Positions 22,435 to 47,077 of a stretch of 64,000 nucleotides of DNA are shown here, in pieces. Made by a program: the position numbers and the translations under genes. Each line of letters begins with the position of its first letter. Position 1 is the stretch's first letter. Under the pieces are notes generated by a model, which was not told the DNA's origin, ran no database searches, and worked only from the letters and a program-made list of their open reading frames with translations. This stretch comes from Aestuariivirga sp. (GTDB lineage Bacteria > Pseudomonadota > Alphaproteobacteria > Rhizobiales > Aestuariivirgaceae). The DNA is taken from assembly GCF_046093005.1 (NCBI RefSeq), contig NZ_JBJTER010000089.1, positions 9,816 to 73,815 on the forward strand, in the 5' to 3' direction.

Positions 22435-23022
22435 CTACCAGCGCATCGGACGGAAGGACTTCAGCGTCGGCATGCCGATCATCGAGGACAGGGGCGCGGC
22501 ATTCTTGCTGAGCAGCCCCATGCCGATGAGGGAGGAGAGCGGCGCGGCATTCTCACTCAGCAGCGGCATGCCGATAACCCTGGAGGCGCTCCAATCGGCT
22601 GACGTCAGCGGTGAGAACCCGATGATCTTGGAGATGGGCGTGGCATCATCGGACAGCAAGGGCATCATCAGCGCGCTTGATAGCGGCGCGGCTTCATCCC
22701 ACAGGGTTTCCGGCGCGGGCTCCGGCATGCCGGTTGGGATGGGGTGGTGGGAGTCGAGAATCTGTTCCGCCGCCAGTCCTGTGCCGAAAGGCGCGAACAC
22801 CGTCACCAGCGAACCGCCCGCCGCAACGCCCTTGGCGTAAATACGGGCGTCCGCCAGAAGCACCCGGTTCTGGGCGATCTGCGCGGCAATGGCCGAGAGC
22901 GGCGTATCACCGGCGGGCGGAGACACCACATGAACGTCCGTGAAGCCCTCCTCGCGCAGTTCGGCGGCGGCCTTGTGAGCGGAGTCCTGGCTGGAATACA
23001 TCCGGTTGATTTCAGTGGTCAT
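22435..23022 (-). CDS. Putative LH2-associated PucDE/gamma-like protein with ~16-aa repeats
   Basis: Lies immediately after pucC; C-terminal repeats (A-x-PLS-x2-IGM-x-LLS). Resemblance to R. capsulatus PucDE is from memory only. Confidence 0.5.
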   Translation of the reverse strand: MTTEINRMYSSQDSAHKAAAELREEGFTDVHVVSPPAGDTPLSAIAAQIAQNRVLLADARIYAKGVAAGGSLVTVFAPFGTGLAAEQILDSHHPIPTGMPEPAPETLWDEAAPLSSALMMPLLSDDATPISKIIGFSPLTSADWSASRVIGMPLLSENAAPLSSLIGMGLLSKNAAPLSSMIGMPTLKSFRPMRW

Positions 23023-23056
23023 TGCGGTGTCCTCTCGCTATTGGTTCGGTGTTCGT

Positions 23057-24457
23057 TCATCGGGCGTCTGCGGTGCGGCGGTTTGTGGCGTCCGGGCTGC
23101 GCGCAAGGTGGTAAGCAATTACGATTGTTGCCATTAGCAGGATCACCTCCAGCCCATAGACCGAAAGATAGGGCAACACTGTTCCCCCGCCGCCAATGGC
23201 CGCGACGCTGTCACGGAGGATCGCGCCCAGCGCAATCCCGCATCCCGCGGCGGTGGCCTGCACTGCGCCCCATGCGCCAAGCGCCAGGCCACGCTGGTCT
23301 TCGGGCGCATGGTTCATGGTGGCGGTGAGCGTGCCGTGCCCGAACAGCCCGCCGCCAAAGCCAATGAGCAGCGTGCCGGCGCCGAACAGCAAGGGTGAGG
23401 CCAATGGCGCCGCCGCGATGATCATCAGGAACGCCGGCACCCCAACCATCGCGCCGCATGCGGCCATGCGGAACGCATCGAAGCCGCGGCTCAGCACATA
23501 GGAGGCAAGGCTGAAGCCCAGGAGGCCGCCGCCCGCGAGTGCGGCCGTCAGCACCGTGGTGCGCGACACGGTAAGGCCGAGGACCTGGCCGCCATAGGGC
23601 TCCAGCATCACATCCTGCATGCTGAAGGCGAGTGTGCCGAGGCCTACCGCCACCAGCCGGGCCATCGCCTTGTCGCCGGCGATGAAGCAGGCCCAGGCCT
23701 CCCGGAAACTGGGGTCGGGGGCGGCTCCTGGCCGCCGCCTGGCGCCGCCGCGCGCCTCCTGCTTCCAAACCGCGATACCGGTGAGCAGCAAGGTGGCCAC
23801 GCCCGCGCCCTGGATCACCTGAACCAGCCGCCCATGCGAGAAATTGGCGAGCAAGGCTCCGAAAATCAGTGCACTGATGATTGAGCCCGCCAGCAGAGAG
23901 ACATACATGAGCCCGACCACATTGGGCTGTTTTTCCGGGGGCGTGAGGTCTGTCGCCAGTGCGAGCCCGGCAGTCTGGCTGATGTGCAGTCCGGCTCCAA
24001 CGAGCAGGAAGGCAAGCGCCGCCGCCGCCTGGCCCACCCAGGCGGGAACTTCAGCGGCATGGCCCTGGCGGGCAAGCACCAGCAGCGCGAAAGGCATGAT
24101 GGCGAGGCCGCCGAACTGCAGCATCGCGCCCTTGTAGATGAATGGAACGCGCTTCCAGCCCAGTTCGGACTGGTGGGTGTCGGATTTGAAGCCGATGAGC
24201 GCCCGGAATGGCGCGAAAACCAGTGGCATGGCCAGCATCACGGCCACCAGCGAGGCCGGAACGTGCAGCTCAACGATCATCACCCGGTTCAGCGTGCCCA
24301 CCAGCAGCGCCAGTGTCATTCCGGCGGAGACCTGGAACAGCGAAAGCCGCAGCAGCCGCTCGATCGGCACATCGGCCGTCGCGGCGTCCGCGAAGGGAAG
24401 ATATTTCGCGCCGAGCCCGATCCAGGCCCGCATCACGCTCTGGCTGAGACGGTTCAT
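23057..24457 (-). CDS. pucC: PucC/LhaA-family MFS light-harvesting assembly protein
   Basis: YLPFADAAT, LLRLSLFQVS, GTLNRVMIVEL, LEPYGG, GAWGAVQATAAG; follows pucBA. Confidence 0.9.
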   Translation of the reverse strand: MNRLSQSVMRAWIGLGAKYLPFADAATADVPIERLLRLSLFQVSAGMTLALLVGTLNRVMIVELHVPASLVAVMLAMPLVFAPFRALIGFKSDTHQSELGWKRVPFIYKGAMLQFGGLAIMPFALLVLARQGHAAEVPAWVGQAAAALAFLLVGAGLHISQTAGLALATDLTPPEKQPNVVGLMYVSLLAGSIISALIFGALLANFSHGRLVQVIQGAGVATLLLTGIAVWKQEARGGARRRPGAAPDPSFREAWACFIAGDKAMARLVAVGLGTLAFSMQDVMLEPYGGQVLGLTVSRTTVLTAALAGGGLLGFSLASYVLSRGFDAFRMAACGAMVGVPAFLMIIAAAPLASPLLFGAGTLLIGFGGGLFGHGTLTATMNHAPEDQRGLALGAWGAVQATAAGCGIALGAILRDSVAAIGGGGTVLPYLSVYGLEVILLMATIVIAYHLARSPDATNRRTADAR

Positions 24458-24498
24458 GCCCCGTATCCGGCGGTTAATGCTGCAACCGGTGTCGGAAT

Positions 24499-24607
24499 TT
24501 GCGGGAGGTGCGCGGGGCTTGGGTCCCCGCTCACCTCTCGCAATATCGTAGCCATCCCCCTTGCACTGCCGGCGCCGCTTTCGGGGGAAAGGAGGCGCCG
24601 GCGGTGC
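24499..24607 (-). terminator. Two GC-rich stem-loops between pucA and pucC (mRNA stabiliser/attenuator)
   Basis: TTGCGGGAGGTG...CACCTCTCGCAA (24499-24543) and GCACTGCCGGCGCC...GGCGCCGGCGGTGC (24563-24607). Confidence 0.55.
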
Positions 24608-24624
24608 CGGTCAGGAGGGACCAT

Positions 24625-24927
24625 CTATTTTACGGCGATCGCCGTCTCGTCCTCGAGCGAGGCGAGCTTGGCGGCCGCGTCAGGAGCCACTGTCACGGTG
24701 ATGACATAGCCCTGATCGGTCTTGGTCACGTTCGAGGCCAGCGGCGAAACCGTGGTTTCGGCCGAGGCGGCCTGCGCGGCCGCTCCGCCCTCGAAGAACT
24801 TCGACACCCAGGTGCTGTGCGTCATCACTGACGCATGCACCACCAGCGAGGTGACCGCCACGCCGCCGATGAACAGCGGCAGGCCGACGGTGGGGTTAAC
24901 GACGCACCAGATTCTTCCTTGGTTCAT
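24625..24927 (-). CDS. pucA: LH2 alpha polypeptide with long C-terminal extension (100 aa)
   Basis: [17 protein letters not shown], His31 BChl ligand, TW at 39-40. Confidence 0.93.
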
Positions 24928-24939
24928 GTCATTAACCTC

Positions 24940-25095
24940 CTAGTGCAGCCATGGCGAATAAACATACGCCAGCAGGTGTGCGAAGAGGGCGATCACGAAG
25001 AACACGCGCGAGCCGTCGATGACGTGCTTGTGCAGTTCCTCTGATTCCCGGATGGTAAGGCCAGTCGGCCATACCCGGTTGGGATCGTCTGACAT
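24940..25095 (-). CDS. pucB: LH2 beta polypeptide (51 aa; below the ORF-track cutoff)
   Basis: Manual translation: [51 protein letters not shown]; GGAGG RBS upstream. Confidence 0.94.
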
Positions 25096-25205: not shown

Positions 25206-26261
25206 TCACGGGTTGGGAACCGATAATTCCGGATACTCCTTTGCCATGCTGAAGCCGTAGAGCGGCTTGTTCACGCCCTGGTGGCAGGTGGCGCAGTTGA
25301 CCTTGAGAACGTCGCCCATCGGCCCCTTGCGGTTGGCGGGGAACACATCGGTGAGCGAGTCCATGTAGGTCTGGTTGACATTGCCCACCATCTGCAGGCC
25401 GTGCCAGGCGGTGACGCGCTGCGGCCGGCTTTCCTTCCAGCTGCTGAAGATCCGCGAGTTGTGGCAGAAGGTGCAGTTGACGCCCAGCCCCGTGGACATG
25501 TGCATCATCAGCGCATAGGTCTTCTCGGTGCTCTGGATCGAGCCGCCGGTGCCGCCCGGAAGCGCCGTGGAGGCGATGACCCGGATGTTGGCGCCGGGCT
25601 GCAGCAGCGTGGTGAACGGATCATAGGGCAGGGAGGCATAGGCGGGAACCTGCATGCCGGCCACATTCTGGCCGTCGCGGCTCGCCGCCATGCCGCCCGC
25701 CTGTTTCGGCCCGGGGTTGATCGCCCAGACATTCGCGGGCACTGGCTTGCCGCGATGGCAGGTGTAGCAGGTGACGCCCGTCGCCTGCACGTGGGTCTGG
25801 TACTTGCTGTTGATGGTCCTCGTCATCTGCAGCATGCGCCGCGCCACGACCTTGGTGTAGACCTCGTCGGACGCCATGTTCTCGACATTGTGGCAATAGG
25901 CGCAGCCGGCATTGTCGCCTTCCTGCGGGGCGACCCAGGTGGTGATGGCGCCCATCAGCCGGTTGAACTGCGCGGTGTCGAGATCGCCCAGCACCTGCAC
26001 ATTCTTGTAGTTTTCAGGATCGTCCTTCACCAGCACGCCGTCGTTCTCCACGGGGTCGTCGGGCACCGGCGCCTTGTTGAGGGCGGCGAGCATTTCGGCG
26101 CGGCGCGGGTTGGTGATCTGCTCCATGCCGAGGCCGCGATAGCCCAGCTGCTCGGAGTGCATCGGCGGGCGCTCCCATTGCAGCATCATGGGGATGGTGA
26201 GCAGGGTCACCACGACGATGCCGAGCAGGGCTGCTGTAAGGGTTGAGGCGGAGAGTTTCAT
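25206..26261 (-). CDS. pufC: Reaction-centre tetraheme cytochrome c subunit
   Basis: Four CxxCH motifs (CAYCH, CYTCH, CTFCH, CATCH); axial Met/His candidates present; WERPP and GYRG motifs. Confidence 0.96.
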   Translation of the reverse strand: MKLSASTLTAALLGIVVVTLLTIPMMLQWERPPMHSEQLGYRGLGMEQITNPRRAEMLAALNKAPVPDDPVENDGVLVKDDPENYKNVQVLGDLDTAQFNRLMGAITTWVAPQEGDNAGCAYCHNVENMASDEVYTKVVARRMLQMTRTINSKYQTHVQATGVTCYTCHRGKPVPANVWAINPGPKQAGGMAASRDGQNVAGMQVPAYASLPYDPFTTLLQPGANIRVIASTALPGGTGGSIQSTEKTYALMMHMSTGLGVNCTFCHNSRIFSSWKESRPQRVTAWHGLQMVGNVNQTYMDSLTDVFPANRKGPMGDVLKVNCATCHQGVNKPLYGFSMAKEYPELSVPNP

Positions 26262-26274
26262 GTGGTCATCCCTC

Positions 26275-27249
26275 CTATTGCGCCACGCCCGTGGGATCGA
26301 GGACCGGCGCCGTCAGGTCGAGCGGATAGACCGGCGCCACGCCATGCTTCACCGCCCACAGATACCAGTTGTCGACCACCGTGCCGGTGAGCAGGATGCC
26401 GATGCCGCCAACCAGCGGGCACAGCACCGCGAACCACCACGCCCAGCGGTGGATCGACTCCATGGTGGCGTTGAAGCCCATGGTCCAGCGCCAGAACAGG
26501 GCGGCGCGCTCCGAGGCCGTGCCGCGGTCGAGGATCTGTTCGATCTCGCGCTCGCCGCCCAGCCGCGACACCGCGAGGATGGTCGCGCCATGCATGGCGA
26601 ACAGCAGCGCCGAGCCGTACAGGAAGGCGATCGAGAGCATGTGGAAAGGGTTGTAGAAGAGGTTGCCGTAGCGGATCGAAAACGCCGCCGTCCAGTCGAG
26701 GTGCGGGAAGATGCCGAACGGGACCGCTTCCGAGAAGTTGCCGAGCAGCAGCGGCCGGAAGAAGCCCAGCACCAGATAGAGCCAGATGGCCGCCGCGAAG
26801 GCCCAGGCGATATGCGTTCCCATGCCCAGCGCGCGGGCGCGCCGGTAGGTGCGCAGCCACCACAGCAGGATCGATGCGGTGAGGAAGAAGCCGGCCATCT
26901 GCCACCAGCCGCCTTCGCGCAGCGGCGCCAGGCCCAGCCCGTATTTGGCCGGCGGCGGCTCGAGGCCCAGCCAGAACAGCTGGCGCACGAATTCGATTGG
27001 GTTCCAGTTCACCGAGGCCAGCATGTTGAGGCCGATGATCTCGATCGCAATGAAACCGCAGAGCAGCGAGGCGATGCCCAGCGCGCCCAGATACACAGGC
27101 CCGATCTGCGCGTCGCCGAAGGTGCCGAGCAGCCAGTTGGTGGTGGTCATGTTCTCGCGTGACCAGTTTCCTGGCTTCATCGGCACGCCCATGTCGGCGG
27201 GGCCGTGCACCTGCACGCGGGTGAAGATATTCTGATATTCGTACATCAT
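26275..27249 (-). CDS. pufM: Type II reaction centre M subunit
   Basis: [57 protein letters not shown]. Confidence 0.98.
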
Positions 27250-27264
27250 GGGAGTCTCCGCGCG

Positions 27265-28089
27265 TCAGGACCAAATCGGCAGGTCGAGCCACCAGTTCCA
27301 CCATTCGGGCCAGCCACGGGTCCAGAATGGGCCGCTGATCACGATGCAGACGGCGCTGAAGAACACCGCGCCCAGCGCCAGCAACAGGCCCAGGCGGTGA
27401 ATGCCGAGCGTGCCGATCGAATAGCCGATGTGATCACGGAAGAAGGCGTTCTCGTGTTCGGCGGTCTTCACCGCCTCGCCCTTCGGCGGGTTGGTGGCCG
27501 ACAGCACCAGGCCGCCATGCATGGCGAGCGCCAGCGTCGTCGTGAAGAACAGCGTGATGGCGATCATATGCGCCGGATTGTAGTGGAAATGCAGATATTG
27601 GTAGCCCACGTTGGACACCCAATCGAGATGGCTGATGATGCCATAGGGGAAGGCATGACCCCAGGCGCCGAGCAGCACCGGGCGCACGATCTCGAGGGTC
27701 ACATAGGCGAGGATGGCGAAGGAGAAGGCGACCGGCACGTGAAGGCCGATGCCGAGCTTGCGGCAGATTTCCACCTCGCGCAGCGCCCAGCTCACGAAGG
27801 CGCCGGTGGCGCACACGGTGATGATCTGCCAGAGCCCGCCCTCCTTGAGCGGCGCCAGCGCCAGGCCATAGCTCAGGTCGGGCGGCGCGATGTTGATCTG
27901 CCAGAGGTTCCAGGTCGGCCCGATGGCCGCGGAATAGACGATCAGGGCGGTGCCCAGGATCGAGAAGAAGGCGGTGGTGACGCCGAAGAAGCCCACATAG
28001 AAGGGCCCCACCCAGAAATCGAACAGATCGCCGCCGAACAGCGTTCCGCCGCGTACGCGATATTTCTTTTCGAAACTGAGCATTGACAT
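27265..28089 (-). CDS. pufL: Type II reaction centre L subunit
   Basis: [36 protein letters not shown]. Confidence 0.98.
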
Positions 28090-28142
28090 TTCGGTCACTC
28101 CTCCGGCCCTGGAAGCCGGCCTTATTTCTCGAATTTCAGTTC

Positions 28143-28178
28143 GTGGACGGAACGGGGTGGAGGCCGCGTTCCGTCCAC
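28143..28178 (-). terminator. pufA-pufL intercistronic stem-loop
   Basis: Perfect 12-bp stem GTGGACGGAACG/CGTTCCGTCCAC at the position known to stabilise pufBA mRNA in Rhodobacter. Confidence 0.7.
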
Positions 28179-28201
28179 AGGGGGGTGCGGGATGACCGGC
28201 G

Positions 28202-28384
28202 TCAGCCGATCATCTCGCTGACTGTCACATCCAGGCTCGCAGCCTTCTTCACGCCGCCTTCCAGCCAGTTGAACCGGTCGGTGGACAGAAGAATGAAGTG
28301 GATGATGAGTGCCAGCACGAACAGGAAGGTAGCCATCGCCACCAGGGTCCTGCGGGGATCGAAAAGAAGCCACATGCGCCACAT
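28202..28384 (-). CDS. pufA: LH1 alpha polypeptide
   Basis: [28 protein letters not shown]. Confidence 0.97.
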
Positions 28385-28396
28385 GATCGATCCTCC

Positions 28397-28615
28397 TTAT
28401 GTGAACATCGACGTGAGCTGGTGCAGGACCGGCGTCAGGTCGGTGCTCTCATAGCCGTTGGGTCCGGGAATCCACGGGCGCCATTGCCAGGCAAGGAAGT
28501 GGGCGACGATCGCCACCAACGTGAAGGCAATGAAGCTCGAAACGAAGATTCCATGGAACTCCTTGGCTTCGGCTTCGGACAGGCCAGAGATGCCTGACCC
28601 TCTGTTATCGGCCAT
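28397..28615 (-). CDS. pufB: LH1 beta polypeptide
   Basis: [23 protein letters not shown]. Confidence 0.97.
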
Positions 28616-28756: not shown

Positions 28757-28972
28757 CTACATGAAGGCGAAGGGGATCGAGTTGTGCGTCGCGGCCTTGG
28801 CGGCGGCGAAGATGGACTTGCCATCCTCATGGCCGGCCATGCGCGGCCGCGCGGCCCGCGGGATCAGCCGCGAGAGCGCGATGGCCACGAAGAACACCGC
28901 GAAGGCCAGCCACATCAGCAGGCTGAACTCGAGCTTCCCCTCGGCGTGGCGTGAGGCGTTGATCATTGACAT
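28757..28972 (-). CDS. pufQ: PufQ-like small membrane protein
   Basis: 71 aa, one TM helix after EF, C-terminal SIFAAAKAA...PFAF; sits between bchZ and pufB. Confidence 0.7.
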   Translation of the reverse strand: MSMINASRHAEGKLEFSLLMWLAFAVFFVAIALSRLIPRAARPRMAGHEDGKSIFAAAKAATHNSIPFAFM

Positions 28973-29024: not shown

Positions 29025-30467
29025 TCAGGCGAGCTCCGCGATGGCTGAAAGCACGTCGGCTTCCGCGACGGTTTCGGATTGCGCCTTGCGGGCGCGGGCC
29101 TCGGCGCCGTCGCGAAGCCGCTTGGCGGCGGATATCCGCACCAGCACCGGCTGGCGTTCCACGAGTTCGTCAAGCGCCGCCTTGGCGGCCGCGTCCCAGA
29201 TCAATTCATGCTCGCGCCGCGCCGGTGTTGCTTCCACCTTGTCCATGTCGGTGGCGAGCGGCAGGATGTTGAACAGCGCGTCGAACAGCGCGTTGCACAC
29301 TTCCTGGATCAGATAGGTGGCGCCGGCATAGCCCATGAACGGCGTGCCGGTATGGCGGCGGATGATGGCGCCGGGGACGGAGGCGGGGAGATAGATGCCG
29401 CGCCCGCCCGCTTCCGTGAGCTACATGCGCTCGTTGTAGCTGCCGAACAGGATGAGCGGCGCCTTCTCGCGAACCAGCTTGCGCACCGCCTCGTTGTCGG
29501 TCTTGGCGCCCGCCTTGCGGGTCACCGCGAACTGGCAGGGCAGGCCCATCTCCTCGCCCAGGAAATGCTCGAGCCCGCGGGCATAGGTTTCGCTCGCCAC
29601 CACGGCGAAGCTGGCGGTGGCGAAGAAATCCTGGGTCACCGAGCGCCACAGGTCCCACAGCGGCTTGATGGTGGTGTGCTTTTCCCGGGCGATGAACGGC
29701 TCGGGATCGAGCCCGAGGGTTTCACCCAGCGCGCGCAGGAACTTGGTGGTCGAGTGCAGCCCGATCGGCGCCTGCAGATAGGGCCGGTCGAGGGTCTCGC
29801 ACAGCTTGCGGCCATATTCGCGGTACATGCACACATTGGCTTCCGCATTGGCGAGCTTCGGCACATCCGCGAGGTGCGATCCCAGCGGGAAGCACATGTT
29901 GACCTCAGCGCCGATGCCTTCGACCAGGCGGCGGATCTCCGCCAGGTCAGACCAGGTGTTGAAGGTGCCGTAGATGGGGCCGATGATATTGACGCGCGGC
30001 TTGTCGCCGGGCGCCCGCGGCTTGGCGGTCGGAACCTGCTTCTTCTTGGTTCCGAATTCCGTCCACAGCCAGTTCATGGCGCGGTCAGCGCTCTGCCACT
30101 GGTCTTCGTCGATGGTGCGCGGCAGGAAGCGCTGGATGCCGGTGCCCTGCGGCGTCACCCCGCCGCCGATCATCTCGGCGATCGAGCCGGTCACCACCAC
30201 GCTCGGCATGGCCGGATCGAGGGTCTTGTGGGCGCGGCGCATGGCGCCTTCGGTGCCGTGCTGGCCGAGTTCCTCCTCGGAAAGCCCGGTCACCACGATC
30301 GGCAGCTCATGCGGCGGCAGCGCGTCGGTGTAATGCAGCACCGATGTCACGGGAAGATTTTCGCAGCCCACCGGCCCGTCGATGATCACCTGCAATCCCT
30401 TGATCGCGGTGAACACATAGACAGCGCCCCAATAGCCGCCGGCGCGGTCGTGATCTAGCACCAGCAT
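29025..30467 (-). pseudogene. bchZ: Chlorophyllide a reductase subunit Z interrupted by an in-frame TAG at 29421-29423 (real lesion or sequencing error)
   Basis: [14 protein letters not shown]...[43 protein letters not shown]... The two ORF-track fragments are in one frame, 87 nt apart. Confidence 0.92.
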
Positions 30468-30528
30468 GGCCGCACCTCCGGGTGTTGCGGCCGCGCCGCG
30501 GCAGGGGTGGCTGTGATCAGAACACGGA

Positions 30529-32061: not shown

Positions 32062-32065
32062 TGTC

Positions 32066-34343: not shown

Positions 34344-34348
34344 GAAAG

Positions 34349-35428: not shown

Positions 35429-35429
35429 G

Positions 35430-36302: not shown

Positions 36303-36314
36303 GGCGATCCCCGC

Positions 36315-36357
36315 TGTCAACTCATAATGTCATTGCGACTGTCAGGAATTATTGACA
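36315..36357. promoter_or_regulatory. PpsR palindromes at the crtE/crtD divergent promoter
   Basis: TGTCAGGAATTATTGACA (36340-57, perfect) and TGTCAACTCATAATGTCA (36315-32, one mismatch). Confidence 0.8.
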
Positions 36358-36393
36358 TACTTGTCCAAACTCCGCAACAGGGAACCGAAATCG

Positions 36394-38756: not shown

Positions 38757-38777
38757 CTCCGGCACCCAAAAATCATG

Positions 38778-39980: not shown

Positions 39981-40008
39981 GGCCGTGGAACGCTTGGCGC
40001 CCCGCCAC

Positions 40009-40811: not shown

Positions 40812-40919
40812 TTACTTCCGCTTATCCCGCCTGAGCTTCCATAACTCCCAGAAGCCGAAGCCCAGGACCAGGCCCAGGACGAGGAGCATTTCCGCGAAAA
40901 TGAGCGAATCCGGGCTCAT
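40812..40919 (-). CDS. 35-aa single-TM peptide translationally coupled to crtB
   Basis: MSPDSLIFAEMLLVLGLVLGFGFWELWKLRRDKRK*; its ATG overlaps the crtB TGA (ATGA). Confidence 0.65.
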   Translation of the reverse strand: MSPDSLIFAEMLLVLGLVLGFGFWELWKLRRDKRK

Positions 40920-41944
40920 GAGCGCTGCTTTTCCAGCCTGGTGAACAGTTCGGTGAGCCATTGCGCGCGTTCGTCCAGGGTGCGCGGCGGGCGCTGCGGA
41001 TCGCCGGCGCGCGAGACCGCATCGACCAGGAACTGCGCCTGCGGCAGGGCAGGCGTGCCGCAGGGCGGCGTGCGCGCCGCCGCGGTGGCGATGGCGCCGC
41101 CCAGCAGGGCGAGTTTTCGCAGCGTCGGCACCACGGCGCGGCGGCCTACGCTGTCGCCGCCATTGCGCTCCACCTCGCGGCCGATGCCGGCATAAAGCAG
41201 CCGCGCGGCGTTGATGGACGGCCGGCAGCCCATGGGCAGCATGGCGATGCCCGCGAGGCTCCGCGCATAAAGCACATCCGCTTCGGCCAGCAGCTGGCCC
41301 ACCACGCGGGCAAGCGCGGGCGAGTGGCGCGGCGCCGCGACAAAGCCATCGGCATCCACACCCGCGTTCGCCAGCCAGTCGAGCGGCAGGTAGACGCGGC
41401 CGTTGCGCGCATCCTCGCCCACATCCCGCGCGATGTTGGTGAGTTGCATGGCAATGCCAAGGTCGCAGGCCCGGGCAATGGCCTCAGGCGCGCGCACCTG
41501 CATGACCAGCGACATCATCGCGCCAACCGTGCCGGCCACGCGCACGGCATAGGCGTGCAGCTCGCCAAGGTTTGGATAGCGGCGGCCGCTGGCGTCCCAG
41601 GCGAAGCCTTCGATGAGGGCTTCCGGAATCTCGCGCGGGATCGCGAAGCGCGCCGCCACGTCGGCAAAGGCGCGGTCGGCGGGGTCATCGCCCGGCGCGC
41701 CGCGGTAGATGCGGTCAAGCCGCTCAAGCAGCGTGTCCACCGCGGCGCGGCTGTCCGGCGTGCGGTCAACAAGGTCATCGGCCACGCGGCAAAAGGCATA
41801 GAGCGAGCGCGAGGCATCGCACACCCGCTGCGGCAGCAGCAGCGAGGCGGTGTAGAAGGTTTTGGAGCCATCGCGGATCATCTGGCGGCACTGCGCCAGA
41901 TCGGCGGGGCTCACCAGGGAACGGTCAGGCGAATGCTGCAGCAT
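40916..41944 (-). CDS. crtB: Phytoene synthase
   Basis: GSKTFY, LYAFCRVADDLVD, RVAGTVG, QLTNIARDVGED, GRVYLP. Confidence 0.95.
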   Translation of the reverse strand: MLQHSPDRSLVSPADLAQCRQMIRDGSKTFYTASLLLPQRVCDASRSLYAFCRVADDLVDRTPDSRAAVDTLLERLDRIYRGAPGDDPADRAFADVAARFAIPREIPEALIEGFAWDASGRRYPNLGELHAYAVRVAGTVGAMMSLVMQVRAPEAIARACDLGIAMQLTNIARDVGEDARNGRVYLPLDWLANAGVDADGFVAAPRHSPALARVVGQLLAEADVLYARSLAGIAMLPMGCRPSINAARLLYAGIGREVERNGGDSVGRRAVVPTLRKLALLGGAIATAAARTPPCGTPALPQAQFLVDAVSRAGDPQRPPRTLDERAQWLTELFTRLEKQRS

Positions 41945-43457
41945 CAGGCACCACGGTGTCGAGAATGCGGGCGGAGGAAATGACGCCGGGAAGGCCAGCG
42001 CCGGGGTGGGTGCCGGCCCCCACCAGGAACAGGTTCTCGATGTCCTCCGCCTTGTTGTTGGGCCGGAACCAGGCGCTTTGCAGCAGCACCGGCTCCAGCC
42101 CGAAGGCGGCCCCCTTGTAGGAGCCAAGCCGGTTTTCGAAATCGATGGGCGTGATCAGCTTCTCCGTGACGATGCTTGCCGAGAGGCCGGGCAGCAGCGT
42201 GGCCTCGAGATGCGCGGCAATCGCCGCGCGGTAGGCTGGCGCGCGGGCCTTCCAGTCGATGCCGGAATCCTGGTGTGGCACCGGCGAAAGCACATAGAAA
42301 CTGTCGCAGCCCGCGGGCGCCAGTTGCGGGTCCGACGCCGTGGGGCGGTGCAGATAGAGGCTGAAATCCTCCGCGAGGTGCTTTCGCGTGAAGATGTCAT
42401 CGAGCAGGCCGCGGTAGCGTGGACCCATCATGATGGTGTGGTGGCGCACGCCGGGATATTGGCGGCCGGTGCCGAAATACCAGACGAACAGGCTCATCGA
42501 ATAGCGGGCGCGGGCGAGCCTCGCATCCGACCAGCGGCGGCGCGGCGCTTTGGCCAGCAGTTTCATGTAGGTATGCGCGGTCTCCGCATTGGAGACGACG
42601 ACCGAAGCCGCGACGGCGCGGCCATCGGCGAGCCGGATGCCGGTGGCGCGGCGGCCATCGAGGGTGATCTCCGCCACCTCGCTGTTGAGGTGAATGGTTC
42701 CGCCCTGGCGTTCGATCAGCCGCGCCATGGCGGCGACCAGCGCGCCGGTGCCGCCGATGGCGCAATGCACGCCGAACTGGCGCTCGAGATAGGCGATCAT
42801 GCTGTAGATGGCAGTGACCTTGAACGGGTTGCCGCCGATGAACAGCGGGTGGAAGCTCAGCGCCATACGGATCTTGGGATCCTTCACGCGCGCCGACACA
42901 TGCTGGTAGACGGTGCGCCAAGCACCGAGCCGCACGAGGTCAGGCGCGATGCGCACCATGCTCATCGGCGAGCCGAAGGGCACATGGCCCAGCTGCTCGA
43001 AGCCGATGCGGTAGATCGCCTCGCTTTCGGCCATGAAGCGCTCATAGCCCTCGACATCGCCCGGCGAAATCCGCGCCACTTCCGCGCGCATGCTGGCGGG
43101 GTCGCCCGAACAGGTCATCACCGTGCCGTCATGGAAGCGGATGTCATAGAAGGGGTCGAGGGCCTTGAGCGTCACGTCATCGGAGAACTTCGCCCCGGCC
43201 AGCGCCCAGAGTTCCTCCAAAATGAAGGGGGCGGTGATGATGGTCGGGCCGGCATCGAAGGTGAAACCGTCCTGGCGGAACACCGAAGCGCGGCCGCCCG
43301 GCTGCTCCAGCTTCTCATAAACGCTCACCCGGTAGCCGCGCGCCCCGAGCCTGATCGCCGCCGCCAGACCGCCCAGCCCGCTGCCGATCACCACGGCATG
43401 CGGGCGCGAACCCACGGTCCGGGCGGGGGGCGGCGGATGTTCGGTGTCTGTAAACAT
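41925..43457 (-). CDS. crtI: Phytoene desaturase
   Basis: VIGSGLGGLAAA, FDAGPTIITAP, HPLFIGGNPF, GAGTHPGAGLPGV. Confidence 0.96.
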   Translation of the reverse strand: MFTDTEHPPPPARTVGSRPHAVVIGSGLGGLAAAIRLGARGYRVSVYEKLEQPGGRASVFRQDGFTFDAGPTIITAPFILEELWALAGAKFSDDVTLKALDPFYDIRFHDGTVMTCSGDPASMRAEVARISPGDVEGYERFMAESEAIYRIGFEQLGHVPFGSPMSMVRIAPDLVRLGAWRTVYQHVSARVKDPKIRMALSFHPLFIGGNPFKVTAIYSMIAYLERQFGVHCAIGGTGALVAAMARLIERQGGTIHLNSEVAEITLDGRRATGIRLADGRAVAASVVVSNAETAHTYMKLLAKAPRRRWSDARLARARYSMSLFVWYFGTGRQYPGVRHHTIMMGPRYRGLLDDIFTRKHLAEDFSLYLHRPTASDPQLAPAGCDSFYVLSPVPHQDSGIDWKARAPAYRAAIAAHLEATLLPGLSASIVTEKLITPIDFENRLGSYKGAAFGLEPVLLQSAWFRPNNKAEDIENLFLVGAGTHPGAGLPGVISSARILDTVVPDAAAFA

Positions 43458-43466
43458 CTCCTGACA
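43449..43466. promoter_or_regulatory. PpsR palindrome over the crtI start
   Basis: TGTAAACATCTCCTGACA (TGT-N12-ACA); a degenerate partner begins 8 bp away at 43475. Confidence 0.7.
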
Positions 43467-43507
43467 GTAGAAACTGTCAGACTGATTTTGGCAAGGGGGA
43501 GCGGCGC

Positions 43508-44383
43508 CTATCGCAATGCGAAACGCTCCGGCGCCGCGATGATGGCGGCGGCGGTCGCGGGGTCTTCCTCATGGGCGAGGTGGCCCAGCCCCTTCATCTC
43601 GATGAGGCGCGGCTGGCGGGTGAGGCGCGCCGCCTCGGCCGCCTTGGCGGGCGCGATGGTGCGGTCATTGCTGGCCCACACGAGGGTGAGCGGCAGGGGC
43701 AGGTTGCGCAGGTCCTGTGGCACCCAGTGCAGGTCCCAGGCGGCCATCATGCCGAGCGCGCCCGCCACATGGCCTTCGTTGGAGAACAGGCGCTGGTAGA
43801 GGCTGACGCCCTCGGCGTCGATGTTGGAGCCGGTGTCGCGCAACAGCCGCTCCACCGCCTTGCGGTCAGCCATGCGGGCAAACACCTTCTGAATGAGCGA
43901 GGCATTGGCGAAGGCCCGGGCGAGCGGCGAGAAGAACTGGCCGGCCATGCCGCTCACCGGAAAGAAGGCGCCGTTGAAGCTGACGAGGTCCCGCGGCGCG
44001 AACAGCCGCTCCACCGCCATGCGCACCATGACCGCGGCCCCCGCCGAGTGGCCTGCGGCGCGCACCGGTTCAACCTTGAGCGCCTGCAGGAGCCGCGCCA
44101 CCGCCGCGGCCATGCCGGGAAGCGACAGGCTTTCCGGCGTCGGCCGGATGGTGAAGGCGTGGCCCGGCAGATCGGGCGCAATGACCGTGAAATGCTGGGC
44201 GAGCTTCGGCATCACGTCGCGCCAGGAATGAGTCGAGGCGCCGGTGCCGTGGAGCAGCAGGAGCGGCGGGCCATCGCCCATCACCTGCACATGCCAGCGC
44301 ATGCCGGCGGCCTCGACGAAACGGCTGGCCTGACGGTTGGGCCAGCCGGCGCCGTCGGTCGCCCAGTCGAGATAATAGCCCAT
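43508..44383 (-). CDS. bchO: Alpha/beta hydrolase BchO
   Basis: WPNRQASRFV, LLHGTGASTHSW, GHSAG, GHLAHEE; follows bchD. Confidence 0.9.
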   Translation of the reverse strand: MGYYLDWATDGAGWPNRQASRFVEAAGMRWHVQVMGDGPPLLLLHGTGASTHSWRDVMPKLAQHFTVIAPDLPGHAFTIRPTPESLSLPGMAAAVARLLQALKVEPVRAAGHSAGAAVMVRMAVERLFAPRDLVSFNGAFFPVSGMAGQFFSPLARAFANASLIQKVFARMADRKAVERLLRDTGSNIDAEGVSLYQRLFSNEGHVAGALGMMAAWDLHWVPQDLRNLPLPLTLVWASNDRTIAPAKAAEAARLTRQPRLIEMKGLGHLAHEEDPATAAAIIAAPERFALR

Positions 44384-44384
44384 G

Positions 44385-46067
44385 TCAGGCGTCCGTTGGC
44401 ATGGCGGCCGCCACCGCGCGCGAGATCGACGCGGCATCGGCGCGCGGCAGGGCGAGATATTGCGCAGCCATCGCCTCGGCCACCCGCTGGGCGGGCCCAC
44501 CTCTGGCATCGGCGAGATCGATCATCAGCGCGCGCACGCCGGCCAGCCGCAGCATCCTGGCCGCCGCCTCGGCATCGGCCAGTGCGGCTGGCCGGCTGGC
44601 GGCGCCATCGCGCGCGATATTGGCCTTGCCGTCGGTGAGGAACACGGCGAGCGGCGTGCCGCCGGCGCGCCGCACTTGGGTGGCCACTTCCACCGCCTGG
44701 GCGATGCCCGCCGCCAGCGGGGTGCCACCGCCACCCGGCAGATCGGCCAGGGATTTGCGCGCCCGCTGCAGCGAGCGGGTGGGCGGCAGCAGAACTTCCG
44801 CCGCCTTGCCGCGAAAGGCGATGAGGGCGGTGCGGTCCCGCCTGACGTAACAATCGGCCAGCAGCAGCTCAACCGCGCCCTTGGCCTCCGCCATGCGGTG
44901 CACCGCCGCCGAGCCCGACGCATCGACCACGAAGATCGCCGTGGTCTCCCGCTTCTGCTGGTAGCGCCGGATGCGGAGATCAGTACTGGTGACGATCAGC
45001 CCCTGGCGCCCGGGTGCTGCGCGGCGGCGCAATGGCTGCCATGGGGCGGCCGCCCGCAACGTATCGACCAGCGCCAGCCGCGCGCCGTTGCGTGGCTCAC
45101 CAGCCCGCGTCCCGGCCGGGCGGCCGCGCGTGACGCCCAGCTTTTCGGAGGCCGCGCCGGCGCCGGATTTCGCCTGGCTCTGGCGCAGATTCTGTTCCAG
45201 CGCCGCCAGCAGGCCTTGTGGCAGGGACGCCTTAACGGCGGCCAGCAGCAGCTCCGACATCTCCCGCGCGGAGGGGTTGCCGTCAGACTTATTTGCATCG
45301 TTCTCGTCCGACGCGGGCGGGGGTGGCGGCGTTTCGGGCTCCGCCGCCGCTTCCGGAACCGGAAAGCGCAGCGCGCGCGGCGCCAGCACGAGGCGGACGG
45401 CGGCCGTGGCATCGTCCTGCGAGACCTCCCGCCTGCCATCCAGCGCGGCGGTGGCGCGGGCGGCGGCACAGGCGAACAGGGCCGGGCGCAAGGAATTGAT
45501 CCCCAGGCTCAGCGCAGCCCCGCACAGCGCGGCGGTGATGACATCCGGCAGCACGACATTGGGCAGCAGCGCTCTGGCCGCGGCCAGATCTTGCCAGGCT
45601 GTGAGGGTTTCGTCGAAATCCTCAGGGAGATCGAGCAGGAAGGCGGCGCGTTCGGCCAGGGCCGGGGGTGCGCGTTCGTCATCCTGGCCTTCATCGCAAA
45701 CGATAAGAAGATATTCTCCTGGACGCTCATCCACCGCCGCGGCGATGAAGCCTGCCTTGGAAGGTGTAAGGCGCTCGCCGGAGGCGATCAGCAAGACGCC
45801 GCCGCGCGCTTCCGCGAGGAGCCCCGGGTCGAGGCAGGGCTTGCCGGTGCGCAGCGTTTCCGCGACATAGAGGCTGCCCGCCAGACGATCCGCCCCGATA
45901 TGCGGCGGCAGGCGGAACATGCGGCGCTCCGGCAACAGGCGGCGGATGCCGGCGATGAAAGCCTCGGGCCCCGGCCCGCCCGGCCCGCGCAGCACCGCGC
46001 CGCCGAGCCCTGCCGGATCGATGGCGAGCAGGGCGAGCGCCGCAGCCCAGCTCTCCGCCGCCATCAC
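44385..46067 (-). CDS. bchD: Magnesium chelatase subunit D
   Basis: Degenerate AAA N-terminus, Pro/acidic linker, vWA domain FVVDASGS, GGGTPLA, TDGKAN. Confidence 0.95.
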   Translation of the reverse strand: MMAAESWAAALALLAIDPAGLGGAVLRGPGGPGPEAFIAGIRRLLPERRMFRLPPHIGADRLAGSLYVAETLRTGKPCLDPGLLAEARGGVLLIASGERLTPSKAGFIAAAVDERPGEYLLIVCDEGQDDERAPPALAERAAFLLDLPEDFDETLTAWQDLAAARALLPNVVLPDVITAALCGAALSLGINSLRPALFACAAARATAALDGRREVSQDDATAAVRLVLAPRALRFPVPEAAAEPETPPPPPASDENDANKSDGNPSAREMSELLLAAVKASLPQGLLAALEQNLRQSQAKSGAGAASEKLGVTRGRPAGTRAGEPRNGARLALVDTLRAAAPWQPLRRRAAPGRQGLIVTSTDLRIRRYQQKRETTAIFVVDASGSAAVHRMAEAKGAVELLLADCYVRRDRTALIAFRGKAAEVLLPPTRSLQRARKSLADLPGGGGTPLAAGIAQAVEVATQVRRAGGTPLAVFLTDGKANIARDGAASRPAALADAEAAARMLRLAGVRALMIDLADARGGPAQRVAEAMAAQYLALPRADAASISRAVAAAMPTDA

Positions 46068-47077
46068 GCCCCCAGCACTTCCGCCACGGCGCGGGCGATG
46101 CGGGTGGCCGAGCCCGTCTCGTCGAGCGGGTTGCGGCGCAGCCGGTGGCGCAGCGACGGGGTGGCCATGCGCCGCAGATGCTCATCGCCCACCCGCTTCG
46201 CCCCCTCGAAAGCGGCGAGCGCGCGGGCGGCGCGCATCAGGGTCAGCTGGCCGCGCAGGCCATCGGTCTTCAAATGGATGCACAGGGCGGCGGCGCGCTC
46301 CAAGACCGCGTCCGGCACCTCGGTGGCGGCCAGCCCGCGCCGGGCCTTGACGATGCGCCTCCTGATCTTCTCCTCCTCCGGCGCCCAGCGGGCGAGGAAG
46401 GCGGGTGGATCGCGCTCGAAGGCATCACGGCGCTTGACGATTTCCACCCACAGCGCGGGATCGCCCGGGGTGCGCACTTCCAGCGACAGGCCGAAACGGT
46501 CCAGCAATTGCGGGCGGAGCTCGCCTTCCTCCGGATTGCCGCTGCCCACCAGCACGATGCGCGCCGGATGGCGCACGCTGAGGCCCTCGCGCTCCACCAC
46601 GTTTTCGCCCGAGGCGGCAACGTCAAGCAAGAGATCGACGATATGATCCTCAAGCAGGTTCACCTCGTCGACATAGAGATAGCCGCGGTTGGCCTGGGCG
46701 AGCAGGCCCGGCTCGAAAGTCTTCTCGCCATGCGAGAGCGCGCGCTCGAGGTTGAGCGCGCCCAGCACGCGGTCCTCAGTGGCGCCAAGCGGCAGGTCGA
46801 CGACCGGAATAGGAATGCGCCGCACCTTGATGGGGCCGCCCGAGCGGCAGGCATCGCACTGGGAGGCGGGCGAATCCGGGTCACAGTGATAGGGGCATGA
46901 CGCGGCGCGGATTTCGGGAAGCAGTGCTGCCAGCGCGCGAACCGCGGTGGATTTCCCCGTGCCGCGGTCGCCAAAGGCGAGGAGCCCGCCGATCAGCGGG
47001 TCCACCGCGGTCAGCAGCAGCGCCTCCTTGAGTTCGTCCTGCCCGGCAATGGCGGAGAAGGGATAGCGCAAGCTCAT
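46064..47077 (-). CDS. bchI: Magnesium chelatase subunit I
   Basis: YPFSAIAGQ, GDRGTGKST, LYVDEVNLL, LDRFGL, DGLRG. Confidence 0.96.
   Translation of the reverse strand: MSLRYPFSAIAGQDELKEALLLTAVDPLIGGLLAFGDRGTGKSTAVRALAALLPEIRAASCPYHCDPDSPASQCDACRSGGPIKVRRIPIPVVDLPLGATEDRVLGALNLERALSHGEKTFEPGLLAQANRGYLYVDEVNLLEDHIVDLLLDVAASGENVVEREGLSVRHPARIVLVGSGNPEEGELRPQLLDRFGLSLEVRTPGDPALWVEIVKRRDAFERDPPAFLARWAPEEEKIRRRIVKARRGLAATEVPDAVLERAAALCIHLKTDGLRGQLTLMRAARALAAFEGAKRVGDEHLRRMATPSLRHRLRRNPLDETGSATRIARAVAEVLGA

What the first reader, a model, noticed from the sequence alone, without database searches (positions are those of the whole stretch)
22435..47077. Self-contained half photosynthesis gene cluster with sharp chromosomal boundaries in a Hyphomicrobiales-like host
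Seen: 24.6 kb of bch/crt/puf/puc bounded by DUF1489/mrr on the left and an sRNA/hisN on the right, with no integrase, IS or tRNA at either end. bchFNBHLM, bchG/P, acsF/bchE/bchJ, puhABC, lhaA, ppsR/aerR and crtA are absent, yet four PpsR-type promoters are present. Inference: the PGC is split between two or more loci, or the other half has been lost. The core genes give me an unverified impression of an Aestuariivirga-like lineage; if so, an LH2-bearing phototroph there would be notable.
Basis: partly seen in the sequence, partly recalled or inferred. Interest (0 to 1): 0.68.

Follow-up and report, generated by a model that had tools for sequence, protein, structure and literature searches.

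The report
One piece of a split photosynthesis cluster
This is a real 24.7 kb block of bacterial photosynthesis genes in a freshwater Aestuariivirga bacterium, cut off from the rest of the cluster most likely by a chromosomal rearrangement rather than by gene loss; it is a modest variant of something already known in this genus.

Summary
Window 22432-47148 carries bchIDO-crtIB, crtCD, crtEF-bchCXYZ-pufBALMC and pucBAC. It lies between mrr/DUF1489 and mmgR/hisN, with no tRNA, integrase or terminal repeats. Six PpsR boxes sit in four promoters, but the window holds no ppsR, bchFNBHLM, bchG/P or puh genes.

The host is an Aestuariivirga. That is not surprising: the genus is a known freshwater pufM group, and the type strain's genome holds a contiguous cluster including pucBAC.

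In at least seven relatives the orf195 end runs into idi-cycA-tspO-bchP-pucC-bchG. In the window it abuts DUF1489, whose usual neighbour is panC. The reciprocal junction, idi next to panC, occurs in related environmental contigs. One inversion between two convergent intergenic sites would produce both junctions.

dN/dS of about 0.1, intact PpsR boxes and near-identical pufBA and pucBA transcripts argue for a working, multi-locus cluster. The rest of the cluster was not found for this genome itself, so loss is not excluded.

bchZ carries an in-frame TAG inside an aberrant 44 bp patch. Every independent assembly covering it reads TAT, so it is probably an assembly error or a rare allele.

Verdict: new variant of a known kind, modest interest.

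The parts
21800..22285 (+). DUF1489 gene, the last chromosomal gene on the left. It converges on orf195.
   Evidence: Pfam PF07370, 4e-52. It is 79-83% identical to Aestuariivirga homologues. In at least 15 loci its downstream neighbour is panC, not a photosynthesis gene.
22286..22434 (.). New junction: a convergent intergenic region joining DUF1489 to orf195.
   Evidence: Single contigs span it in five Logan assemblies. Homology to sister lineages L290 and L293 stops at 22432 and 22460.
22435..23022 (-). orf195, a conserved protein of unknown function that closes this module. Its C-terminal part holds repeats of the form PLLS..AAPLSS.IG.
   Evidence: No Pfam, NCBIfam or PADLOC hit. A homologue lies between pucC and idi in L001, L003, L201, L279, L283, L301, L318 and L320. 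dN/dS is 0.09-0.14.
23057..25095 (-). pucBAC operon for the LH2 antenna: pucB 24940-25095, pucA 24625-24927 (100 aa, with a C-terminal extension), pucC 23057-24457.
   Evidence: Pfam PUCC 5e-145 and LHC. The best solved-structure matches are LH2 B800-850 chains (7ze3; beta 8e-27, alpha 2e-18), while LH1 beta scores only 1e-6. Metatranscriptome contigs with 0-4 differences map here.
25206..28615 (-). pufBALMC: LH1 beta and alpha, reaction-centre L and M, and the tetrahaem cytochrome.
   Evidence: NCBIfam equivalogs, all above their cut-offs. A 536 nt metatranscriptome contig with one difference covers pufBA.
28757..28972 (-). orf71, a small membrane protein in the position that pufQ normally occupies.
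   Evidence: No family hit. One hydrophobic segment. It is 79-83% conserved in relatives at the same position.
29025..33996 (-). bchCXYZ, encoding chlorophyllide a reductase and BchC. bchZ is interrupted by an in-frame TAG at 29421-29423.
   Evidence: NCBIfam BchZ matches split over two ORFs, at profile positions 1-344 and 374-466. Contigs from X2-X5 read TAT (Tyr), as in all relatives.
34058..34101 (.). Tandem PpsR/CrtJ palindromes in the bchC promoter.
   Evidence: TGT-N12-ACA at 34058 and 34084, 8 nt apart.
34349..36320 (-). crtE and crtF.
   Evidence: Polyprenyl synthase and CrtE family matches. O-methyltransferase domains in Pfam.
36340..36379 (.). Two PpsR palindromes in the divergent crtE/crtD promoter.
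36352..38756 (+). crtD and crtC.
   Evidence: NF045637 CrtD at 662 bits; NF045922 CrtC at 287 bits, covering residues 160-434 of the long ORF.
39069..40383 (.). Variable slot between crtC and crtB. It holds a 303 aa secreted protein (+) and an HVO_A0114-type winged-helix protein (-). Neither is a photosynthesis gene.
   Evidence: Pfam PF25212, 6e-27, for the winged-helix protein; only a weak ClpP-like hit for the 303 aa protein. Neither has a homologue in any fetched relative.
40916..47077 (-). bchIDO-crtIB: Mg-chelatase I and D subunits, BchO, phytoene desaturase and phytoene synthase.
   Evidence: NCBIfam. PpsR palindromes lie at 43449 (crtI) and 47110 (bchI).
47078..47148 (.). bchI promoter with its PpsR box; the right edge of the conserved block.
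   Evidence: L198 matches window 46842-47148 at 95-97% nucleotide identity, and no further.
47322..47399 (-). mmgR sRNA, the first chromosomal feature on the right. hisN follows at 47671-48459 (+).
   Evidence: Rfam RF00519, 67.3 bits against a gathering score of 41. TIGR02067 HisN, 5e-79.

Best explanation
**What it is.** The block is one module of the photosynthesis gene cluster of a freshwater aerobic anoxygenic phototroph of the genus Aestuariivirga. It holds bchIDO-crtIB, crtCD, crtEF-bchCXYZ-pufBALMC and pucBAC-orf195.

**Ancestral layout.** In the genus the cluster is contiguous. The module aerR-ppsR-bchG-pucC2-bchP-tspO-orf-cycA-idi converges head-on with orf195-pucC-pucAB-pufCMLAB and the genes behind it.

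**What changed.**
- In the window's lineage the convergent idi/orf195 junction was broken.
- The orf195 end was joined to DUF1489, whose conserved neighbour is panC.
- The matching junction, idi against panC, exists in related populations.
- One chromosomal inversion with end points in these two convergent intergenic regions yields exactly these two junctions.
- The inverted segment would be more than 41 kb, because the window does not reach panC.

**Consequence.** The bchG-to-idi module, and a third module not observed here (ppsR/aerR, bchFNBHLM, lhaA-puh, acsF), should lie elsewhere on the same chromosome. The block would still work as usual: PpsR-repressed promoters drive carotenoid, bacteriochlorophyll-reductase, reaction-centre/LH1 and LH2 genes.

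**Shown.** Gene content, boundaries, reality of the junction, the synteny break, the reciprocal junction in relatives, purifying selection, intact PpsR boxes, and transcription of near-identical pufBA and pucBA.

**Inferred.** That the reciprocal junction and the remaining modules are in this very genome, and that the event was an inversion.
For: **Contiguous layout in relatives.**
- The orf195 end runs straight into idi-cycA-tspO-bchP-pucC2-bchG in L001, L003, L201, L279 (the A. litoralis type strain), L283, L301, L318 and L320.
- ppsR, aerR and bchF lie beyond that module in L201 and L283.

**The synteny break.**
- DUF1489 is followed by panC-(lrp)-putA-dinB in at least 15 Aestuariivirga loci.
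- The window has none of these genes.

**The reciprocal junction.**
- L299 reads tspO-orf-cycA-idi, then panC convergent with idi.
- A 33 kb JGI contig reads SecDF-DUF498-SQS_PSY | bchG...idi | panC-putA-dinB.
- Sister lineage L293 has SQS_PSY-DUF498 next to orf195. This supports SQS_PSY as the ancestral left flank of the cluster.

**Signs that the block still works.**
- dN/dS is 0.09-0.11 between the window and its two sisters, which also lack idi next to orf195. dS is 0.5-0.7.
- The window's branch shows no excess of amino-acid changes: 67, against 62 and 54 for two relatives.
- Six intact PpsR palindromes sit in four promoters.
- Lake metatranscriptome contigs at least 97% identical cover pufBA and pucBA.

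**The junction is not an artefact.** It appears in five independent assemblies.
Against: - **Source genome out of reach.** The rest of the source genome could not be read, so no bchG, bchL, puhA or ppsR has been shown for this organism.
- **Reciprocal junction seen only in relatives.**
  - The L299 population is not in the metagenomes that hold the window, at 90% identity or more.
  - In those metagenomes the L299-like panC contig runs 268-348 nt past the panC stop codon without matching idi.
- **Depth test failed.** Contig depths of idi, bchP and cycA did not track the window's depth well.
- **More than one event is needed.**
  - Both flanks of the block differ among close relatives.
  - Next to orf195 lie cob methylase genes in one sister and SQS_PSY in another.
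  - A Fic gene lies upstream of bchI in a relative whose BchI is 97% identical.
- **Loss does occur in this group.** Some related contigs look eroded, for example tspO-cycA-idi without bchP.
- **bchZ.** As given, the window's bchZ carries a stop codon.
Confidence: 0.6

Rival explanations
1. The block is a remnant. The lineage has lost the rest of the cluster (bchG/P, bchFNBHLM, puh, ppsR), and this block is a non-functional leftover at the start of decay. The bchZ nonsense codon would be the first visible lesion.
For: - The window as given has an in-frame TAG in bchZ, plus three other changes at invariant residues within 44 bp.
- No other photosynthesis gene lies in the 64 kb.
- Related contigs show modules going missing. 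One sister has SQS_PSY directly next to orf195, as if bchG-to-idi had been deleted. Another contig has tspO-cycA-idi preceded by an oxidoreductase instead of bchP.
- The remaining modules were not linked to this population.
Against: - Apart from that one patch, every gene in the block is intact.
- dN/dS is about 0.1 across three sister lineages that share the break, and the window's branch shows no rate excess.
- All six PpsR palindromes are perfect.
- Near-identical pufBA and pucBA are transcribed in lakes.
- Every independent assembly covering the bchZ site (X2, X3, X4, X5) reads TAT, together with the consensus residues. No contig carries the window's version.
- A free-standing bchG-to-idi module with the reciprocal flank exists in relatives.
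Confidence: 0.17
2. The 24.7 kb block is a movable or horizontally exchanged module. It has landed at different chromosomal sites in closely related Aestuariivirga lineages, here between DUF1489 and mmgR/hisN, through recombination that leaves no classical mobile-element marks.
For: - Homology to the sisters stops exactly at the orf195 stop codon (22432) and at the bchI promoter (47148).
- Three different left flanks occur: DUF1489, cob methylase genes and SQS_PSY.
- At least two or three different right flanks occur: mmgR/hisN, a Fic gene, and the unrelated flank of L198.
- pucBA shows dS of 0.03-0.07 against L290, while the neighbouring pucC and orf195 show 0.65-0.7. That points to recombination between lineages inside the block.
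Against: - There is no integrase, transposase, tRNA or terminal repeat (family scans).
- Base composition matches the flanks.
- This is not a simple insertion. panC, the usual neighbour of DUF1489, is not on the far side of the block.
- The idi-panC junction in relatives is what a reciprocal exchange predicts, not what an insertion predicts.
- The flanks seen in relatives come from short contigs of 1.8-5 kb. Small local insertions, such as a Fic gene, could mimic a new context.
Confidence: 0.15
3. The half cluster is an assembly or binning chimera that joins a photosynthesis contig to an unrelated chromosome.
For: The source is evidently a metagenome-derived sequence: its exact orf195 occurs only in freshwater metagenome assemblies. 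The bchZ patch shows that it contains at least one local anomaly.
Against: - Single contigs of 2.5-4.3 kb in five independently assembled runs carry pucC-orf195-DUF1489-mrr at 99.98% identity.
- Depth is even across the junction.
Confidence: 0.02

Closest known systems
Contiguous photosynthesis gene cluster of Aestuariivirga litoralis KCTC 52945 (GCA_003234965.1, contig QKVK01000007.1) and of Aestuariivirga MAGs such as NZ_OZ245771.1
   Same: The genes have the same order and orientation from bchZ/bchY to orf195, including orf71, pufBALMC and pucBAC. Proteins are 79-93% identical. The chromosomal genes on the window's left flank are also syntenic.
   Different: In those genomes orf192/195 converges with idi. 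The cluster then continues through cycA-tspO-bchP-pucC2-bchG-ppsR-aerR to bchF. In the window that continuation is replaced by DUF1489-mrr-cob genes.
The classical 'crt-bch-puf' superoperon half of purple-bacterial clusters (Rhodobacter capsulatus/sphaeroides: crtA-bchIDO-crtIB-tspO-crtCDEF-bchCXYZ-pufQBALMX). This comparison rests on my own knowledge and was not tested here.
   Same: The window has the same modules and the same operon logic. crtEF reads into bchCXYZ-puf, crtDC is divergent, bchIDO-crtIB is present, and PpsR/CrtJ palindromes sit at bchC, crtD/E and crtI.
   Different: The window has no crtA and no tspO in the crtB-crtC slot; two unrelated genes sit there instead. It has pufC instead of pufX. 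pucBAC is fused to the end of the puf operon region.
Split or multi-locus photosynthesis clusters in other Alphaproteobacteria, for example Methylobacterium and Rhodospirillum rubrum (own knowledge). A 'split PGC' was also reported for Blastomonas sp. AAP53 (PMC3622956).
   Same: The genes are functional but spread over more than one chromosomal locus. The bchIDO...pufBALMC part stays together.
   Different: Here the break can be dated within a genus and mapped to one convergent intergenic region, and the reciprocal junction has been recovered. The authors of the Blastomonas report themselves attribute its split to incomplete assembly.
Related Aestuariivirga populations with interrupted clusters: ENA ERZ12289969 NODE_88 (L280/L296) and JGI 3300060284 (L283)
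   Same: The cluster is disturbed at the same place, the idi/orf195 convergent junction.
   Different: In those populations non-photosynthesis genes are inserted, and both halves stay on one contig. The insert is 19 kb of transporter genes in NODE_88 and a sulfatase gene in L283. In the window the halves have been separated by rearrangement.

Membership tests
Purple-bacterial photosynthesis gene cluster (type II reaction centre) | pufL and pufM with LH1 pufBA, next to bchCXYZ | tested here: met
   TIGR01157 at 440 bits, TIGR01115 at 546 bits, the pufA and pufB models at 79 bits each, and BchX, BchY, BchZ and BchC above their cut-offs.
Purple-bacterial photosynthesis gene cluster (type II reaction centre) | A full gene set at one locus: bchFNBHLM, bchG, bchP, acsF or bchE, puhA, lhaA, ppsR | tested here: not met
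   None is in the 64 kb window. The only BchH-like protein is CobN: 1585 bits to the CobN model against 616 to the BchH model.
PpsR/CrtJ regulon | TGT-N12-ACA palindromes in bch, crt or puc promoters | tested here: met
   Six sites in four promoters, two of them tandem pairs. The window total is 11 against 4.3 expected, and none of 100 shuffles reached 11.
PpsR/CrtJ regulon | The ppsR gene (with aerR/ppaA) in the genome | not testable with these tools
   It is absent from the window. It lies next to bchG in L201, L279, L280 and L283. The rest of the source genome could not be reached.
LH2 peripheral antenna (pucBAC) | Alpha and beta polypeptides closer to LH2 than to LH1, followed by pucC | tested here: met
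   The best PDB matches are LH2 B800-850 chains (7ze3, 7zdi; 8e-27 and 2e-18), while LH1 beta scores 1e-6. Pfam PUCC scores 5e-145.
LH2 peripheral antenna (pucBAC) | Assembly of a B800-850 type complex | not testable with these tools
   This needs spectroscopy. PucA has an unusual C-terminal extension of about 45 residues.
Genomic island / integrative mobile element | Integrase or transposase, a tRNA or direct-repeat border, deviating base composition | tested here: not met
   No tRNA. No recombinase family among the flanking genes. No shared repeat longer than 9 nt. GC is 0.63-0.72 in the block and 0.62-0.69 in the flanks.
Genus Aestuariivirga (as used by NCBI and GTDB) | Housekeeping genes and synteny closest to Aestuariivirga genomes, including the type strain | tested here: met
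   The best DUF1489 hits are Aestuariivirga at 79-83%, including A. litoralis. The cobO-cobN-cobW-cbtA-TPR-mrr-DUF1489 order is conserved in L081-L089. The window holds no 16S rRNA gene and no marker-gene set, so formal placement was not possible.
Pseudogenised (decaying) cluster | Several disrupted genes and relaxed selection | tested here: not met
   There is a single in-frame stop, in bchZ, and independent assemblies do not support it. dN/dS is about 0.1, with no lineage-specific rate excess.
mmgR (RF00519) sRNA | Covariance-model score above the gathering threshold | tested here: met
   67.3 bits against a threshold of 41, full length 1-77.

The most novel reading that the evidence does not exclude
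In this freshwater Aestuariivirga subclade the photosynthesis cluster may have been broken into at least three modules. These would be re-shuffled again and again at the same convergent intergenic hot spots (idi/orf195 and ppsR/bchG). The 24.7 kb puf-crt-bchIDO module would sit in a different chromosomal context in each close relative, and some lineages would be dropping modules. That would be a natural series showing how a cluster fragments, moves and is finally lost, or a recombinase-independent way of moving a photosynthesis module.
Probability: 0.2. Interest if true: 0.55.

Novelty: new variant of a known kind. Interest (0 to 1): 0.33.

Why it matters
Photosynthesis gene clusters are the textbook case of a large functional gene set that is gained and lost as a unit. 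How they break up is less well documented.

Here a break can be placed within one genus and at one convergent intergenic region, with both recombinant junctions recovered. That makes Aestuariivirga, an abundant freshwater photoheterotroph, a usable case for asking two questions: whether clustering is needed for function, and how phototrophy is lost.

There is also a practical point. MAG surveys that score phototrophy by the presence of a contiguous cluster would misjudge such genomes. None of this changes what is known about the photosynthetic machinery itself.

Tried and rejected
1. **Searching the source assembly directly.** This was impossible. Exact-protein look-ups returned only contigs shorter than 5 kb.

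2. **Reading the complete relative chromosome NZ_OZ245771.1 beyond 21 kb.**
   - Three further genome scans (DUF1489, BchI, BchG) did not return it.
   - Even the BchG query taken from that chromosome failed to find it.

3. **Co-abundance test.**
   - I laid four metagenomes rich in the window population on the bchG-to-idi part of relatives.
   - Many AAP populations map there at 80-90% identity.
   - Contig depths for bchP/pucC2 were 27.8/18.4/17.3/20.6, and for cycA 26/17/13/13.
   - The window's depths are 24/29/19/13.5, so the two do not track cleanly.
   - The result is inconclusive.

4. **Presence/absence control.** I used an aquaculture study in which one run holds the window and two do not. 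All three carry complex AAP communities, so the control was uninformative.

5. **Looking for the idi-panC junction in the window's own metagenomes.**
   - L299-like idi and panC contigs are present at 85-86% identity.
   - They are not joined within 268-348 nt.
   - The 30 nt loose ends matched nothing.

6. **A minor contig with loose ends at 22062 and 22973.** I first suspected a second copy of the junction. The depth bins show two separate short matches from other species, so I dropped it.

8. **Terminal repeats at the block ends.** None were found.

9. **Blastomonas AAP53 as a precedent for a split cluster.** On reading, its authors attribute the split to assembly.

10. **PADLOC scan of the odd genes in and beside the block.** Only Mrr scored, as a type IV restriction enzyme. 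It is conserved in relatives at the same place, so it is not an island marker.

Full report
**1. What is in the window**

The window is GC-rich (0.62-0.72), so I called genes by third-position GC and named them with NCBIfam and Pfam.

Between 22435 and 47077 lie the following genes, on the minus strand unless noted:
- orf195
- pucC, pucA, pucB
- pufC, pufM, pufL, pufA, pufB
- a 71 aa membrane protein in the pufQ position
- bchZ, bchY, bchX, bchC
- crtF, crtE
- crtD and crtC, on the plus strand
- two unrelated genes: a 303 aa secreted protein and an HVO_A0114-type winged-helix protein
- a 49 aa ORF
- crtB, crtI, bchO, bchD, bchI

The pucB and pucA products match solved LH2 B800-850 chains far better than LH1 chains. 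They are followed by a PUCC-family gene, so the LH2 reading is sound.

The left flank is cobO-cobN-cobW-cbtA behind a cobalamin riboswitch, then a TPR/SPOR protein, an Mrr-type restriction enzyme and DUF1489. The right flank is the mmgR sRNA, then hisN, adenine deaminase, kefC, chaA, nrdJ, emrB and others.

The window has no tRNA and no recombinase. Its two ends share no repeat, and its base composition does not step at the edges.

Six of the window's eleven TGT-N12-ACA palindromes fall in the bchC, crtD/E, crtI and bchI promoters. Chance would give 4.3 in the whole window.

No other photosynthesis gene is in the 64 kb.

**2. The junction is real**

The window's exact orf195 occurs in five Logan assemblies of one freshwater series. 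Each time it sits on a single contig carrying pucC-orf195-DUF1489-mrr. One of these contigs is 99.98% identical to the window over 4309 nt.

**3. Who the host is**

- PufM is 91-93% identical to Aestuariivirga MAGs.
- DUF1489 is 79-83% identical to Aestuariivirga genomes, including the type strain A. litoralis KCTC 52945.
- The 9 kb left flank is syntenic with more than ten of these genomes.

The genus is already reported as a core member of freshwater AAP communities from pufM amplicons (PMC10976687). The type strain's genome carries a full cluster including pucBAC. A phototroph with LH2 genes in this lineage is therefore expected, not notable. I found no paper that describes the cluster layout in the genus.

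**4. How the window differs from its relatives**

In the following relatives the orf195 homologue converges with idi:
- L001, a complete chromosome
- L003 and L201
- L279, A. litoralis
- L283, L301, L318 and L320

The cluster then continues idi-cycA-orf-tspO-bchP-pucC2-bchG. It runs on to ppsR, aerR and bchF in L201 and L283, and to ppsR and aerR in L279.

The idi/orf195 convergent region is disturbed in several lineages:
- two small ORFs in A. litoralis
- a sulfatase gene in L283
- 19 kb of transporter genes in ENA NODE_88

The window is the extreme case, because idi and everything behind it are gone from the locus.

DUF1489 normally converges with panC, which is followed by an lrp-type regulator, putA and dinB. 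This holds in at least 15 loci. None of these genes is in the window. Both partners of the window's junction have therefore lost their usual neighbours.

**5. The reciprocal junction**

If one event joined DUF1489 to orf195, it should also have joined idi to panC. That junction exists:
- The JGI contig L299 reads tspO-orf-cycA-idi, then panC convergent with idi.
- A 33 kb contig of metagenome 3300059473 reads SecDF-DUF498-SQS_PSY | bchG-x-pucC2-bchP-tspO-orf-cycA-idi | panC-putA-dinB.

All four genes point at their junctions. A single inversion whose end points lie in the two convergent intergenic regions therefore gives exactly the two new junctions.

The sister lineage L293 has orf195 82% identical to the window's. 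There, SQS_PSY-DUF498 lies directly next to orf195. This is what the same ancestral locus would look like without the bchG-to-idi module. It supports SQS_PSY as the ancestral left border.

In the 33 kb contig bchG follows SQS_PSY directly. In L199 it follows an efflux pump. So ppsR, aerR and bchF... form a third, separate module in this subclade.

**6. Is the block still in use?**

- The window's nearest relatives by orf195 are L290 (88% nucleotide identity) and L293 (85%). Both also lack idi next to orf195.
- dN/dS among the three is 0.09-0.11 over pucB, pucA, pucC, orf195 and pufC, at dS 0.5-0.7.
- Amino-acid changes unique to the window (67) are no more frequent than those unique to L001 (62) or L003 (54).
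- The PpsR boxes are perfect palindromes.
- Lake metatranscriptomes contain contigs with 0-1 differences over pufBA and pucBA.

These results point to a working apparatus, which in turn requires the missing biosynthetic genes somewhere in the genome.

**7. What remains open**

I could not read the rest of the source genome.
- The L299 population is not the window's population.
- The window's metagenomes hold L299-like idi and panC contigs at 85-86% identity, but these are not adjacent within about 300 nt.
- Depth comparisons were inconclusive.

Both flanks of the block differ among close relatives:
- cob methylase genes or SQS_PSY lie next to orf195
- a Fic gene lies upstream of a 97%-identical bchI
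- L198 has yet another context

More than one rearrangement has therefore happened, and movement of the block as a unit is not excluded.

Some related contigs look eroded, so loss does occur in this group.

I put about 0.6 on 'split by rearrangement, remainder elsewhere and functional'. I put about 0.17 on 'remnant after loss' and about 0.15 on 'moving module'.

**8. The bchZ stop codon**

The TAG at 29421-29423 replaces a Tyr that is invariant in relatives. Within the next 44 bp the window has four more differences from the contigs of X2-X5. Three of them change residues that the metagenome contigs and four compared relatives share or vary conservatively: Phe to Val, Ile to Leu, and Val/Met to Ile.

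Over the 10.5 kb laid, only two other differences from the contigs are shared by all four runs, and both are synonymous. No independent contig carries the window's version of the patch. The most likely reading is a local consensus error or a rare allele, not a fixed pseudogene.

**9. Verdict**

This is a new arrangement of a known kind of gene cluster, of modest interest to specialists in the evolution of phototrophy.

Noticed in passing
window 29378-29423 (bchZ): bchZ has an in-frame TAG at codon 406, plus four more differences within 44 bp; three of them change conserved residues and one is synonymous. Contigs from four independent metagenome runs read the consensus (Tyr, Val, Ile, Phe). No contig carries the window's version.
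   Followed up: yes
window 38757-40915 (between crtC and crtB): A variable slot holds a 303 aa secreted protein with a weak ClpP-like hit and an HVO_A0114-type winged-helix protein. Neither has a homologue in any fetched relative. Rhodobacter has tspO in this slot, L162 has two other ORFs, and L163 has nothing. A 49 aa membrane ORF at 40812-40961 is conserved in L163 (67% identity).
   Followed up: partly
window 22435-23022 (orf195) and homologues in L001, L003, L279, L283, L301: orf195 is a conserved cluster gene with no known family. Its C-terminal half holds repeats of the form PLLS..AAPLSS.IG. It always lies between pucC and idi and is under purifying selection (dN/dS 0.09-0.14). It has about twice as many lineage-specific changes in the window (17) as in L001 (7) or L003 (9).
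   Followed up: partly
window 24625-25095 versus L290 165-635: pucB and pucA differ from the sister lineage by dS 0.03-0.07, while the adjacent pucC and orf195 differ by dS 0.65-0.7. This suggests recent recombination between lineages inside the block, or extreme codon constraint.
   Followed up: no
L279 (A. litoralis KCTC 52945, QKVK01000007.1: 199023-220042): The type strain of the genus carries a complete-looking cluster with pucBAC. A GIY-YIG ORF is inserted at the idi/orf192 junction, and two sugar-modification genes lie between ppsR and bchG. I found no paper in the library that describes the strain as phototrophic.
   Followed up: partly
L198 (Aestuariivirga sp. CTOTU1234, DAISVW010000141.1) 3952-4258 and 6343-6493: Two direct copies of the bchI promoter and first 79 codons lie 2.4 kb apart. 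They are 95-97% identical to window 46842-47148, and the flanks are unrelated. The second copy runs to the contig end, so this may be an assembly loop. It could also be a truncated bchI.
   Followed up: partly
JGI+NCBI 3300059473 contigs (P0042); L293/L294/L295: There are signs of module loss in relatives. One contig has tspO-orf-cycA-idi preceded by a GFO/IDH/MocA oxidoreductase where bchP should be. One sister lineage has SQS_PSY directly next to orf195, as if bchG-to-idi had been excised.
   Followed up: partly
L280/L296 (ENA ERZ12289969 NODE_88, 65-106 kb): Non-photosynthesis genes spanning 19 kb sit between idi and orf190 inside an otherwise ordinary cluster. They include DUF3833, an AI-2E transporter, MarC, arginine deiminase, the Mrp antiporter, an RND pump and a patatin. 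The idi/orf195 convergent region looks like an insertion hot spot.
   Followed up: partly
window 13229-19661 and 54119-57799: A cobalamin riboswitch controls cbtA-cobW-cobN-cobO immediately left of the block, and a B12-dependent ribonucleotide reductase (nrdJ) lies to the right. One sister lineage has precorrin methylase genes directly next to orf195. In relatives the cluster's antirepressor, AerR, is a B12-binding protein. The closeness of B12 genes may be coincidence.
   Followed up: no
L163 9026-9916 and L199 1-10000: The clade shows other break points. In L163 a B12-binding aerR-like gene sits directly upstream of bchI, next to secA. In L199 bchG is preceded by an RND pump, PadR and liv transporter genes instead of ppsR.
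   Followed up: partly
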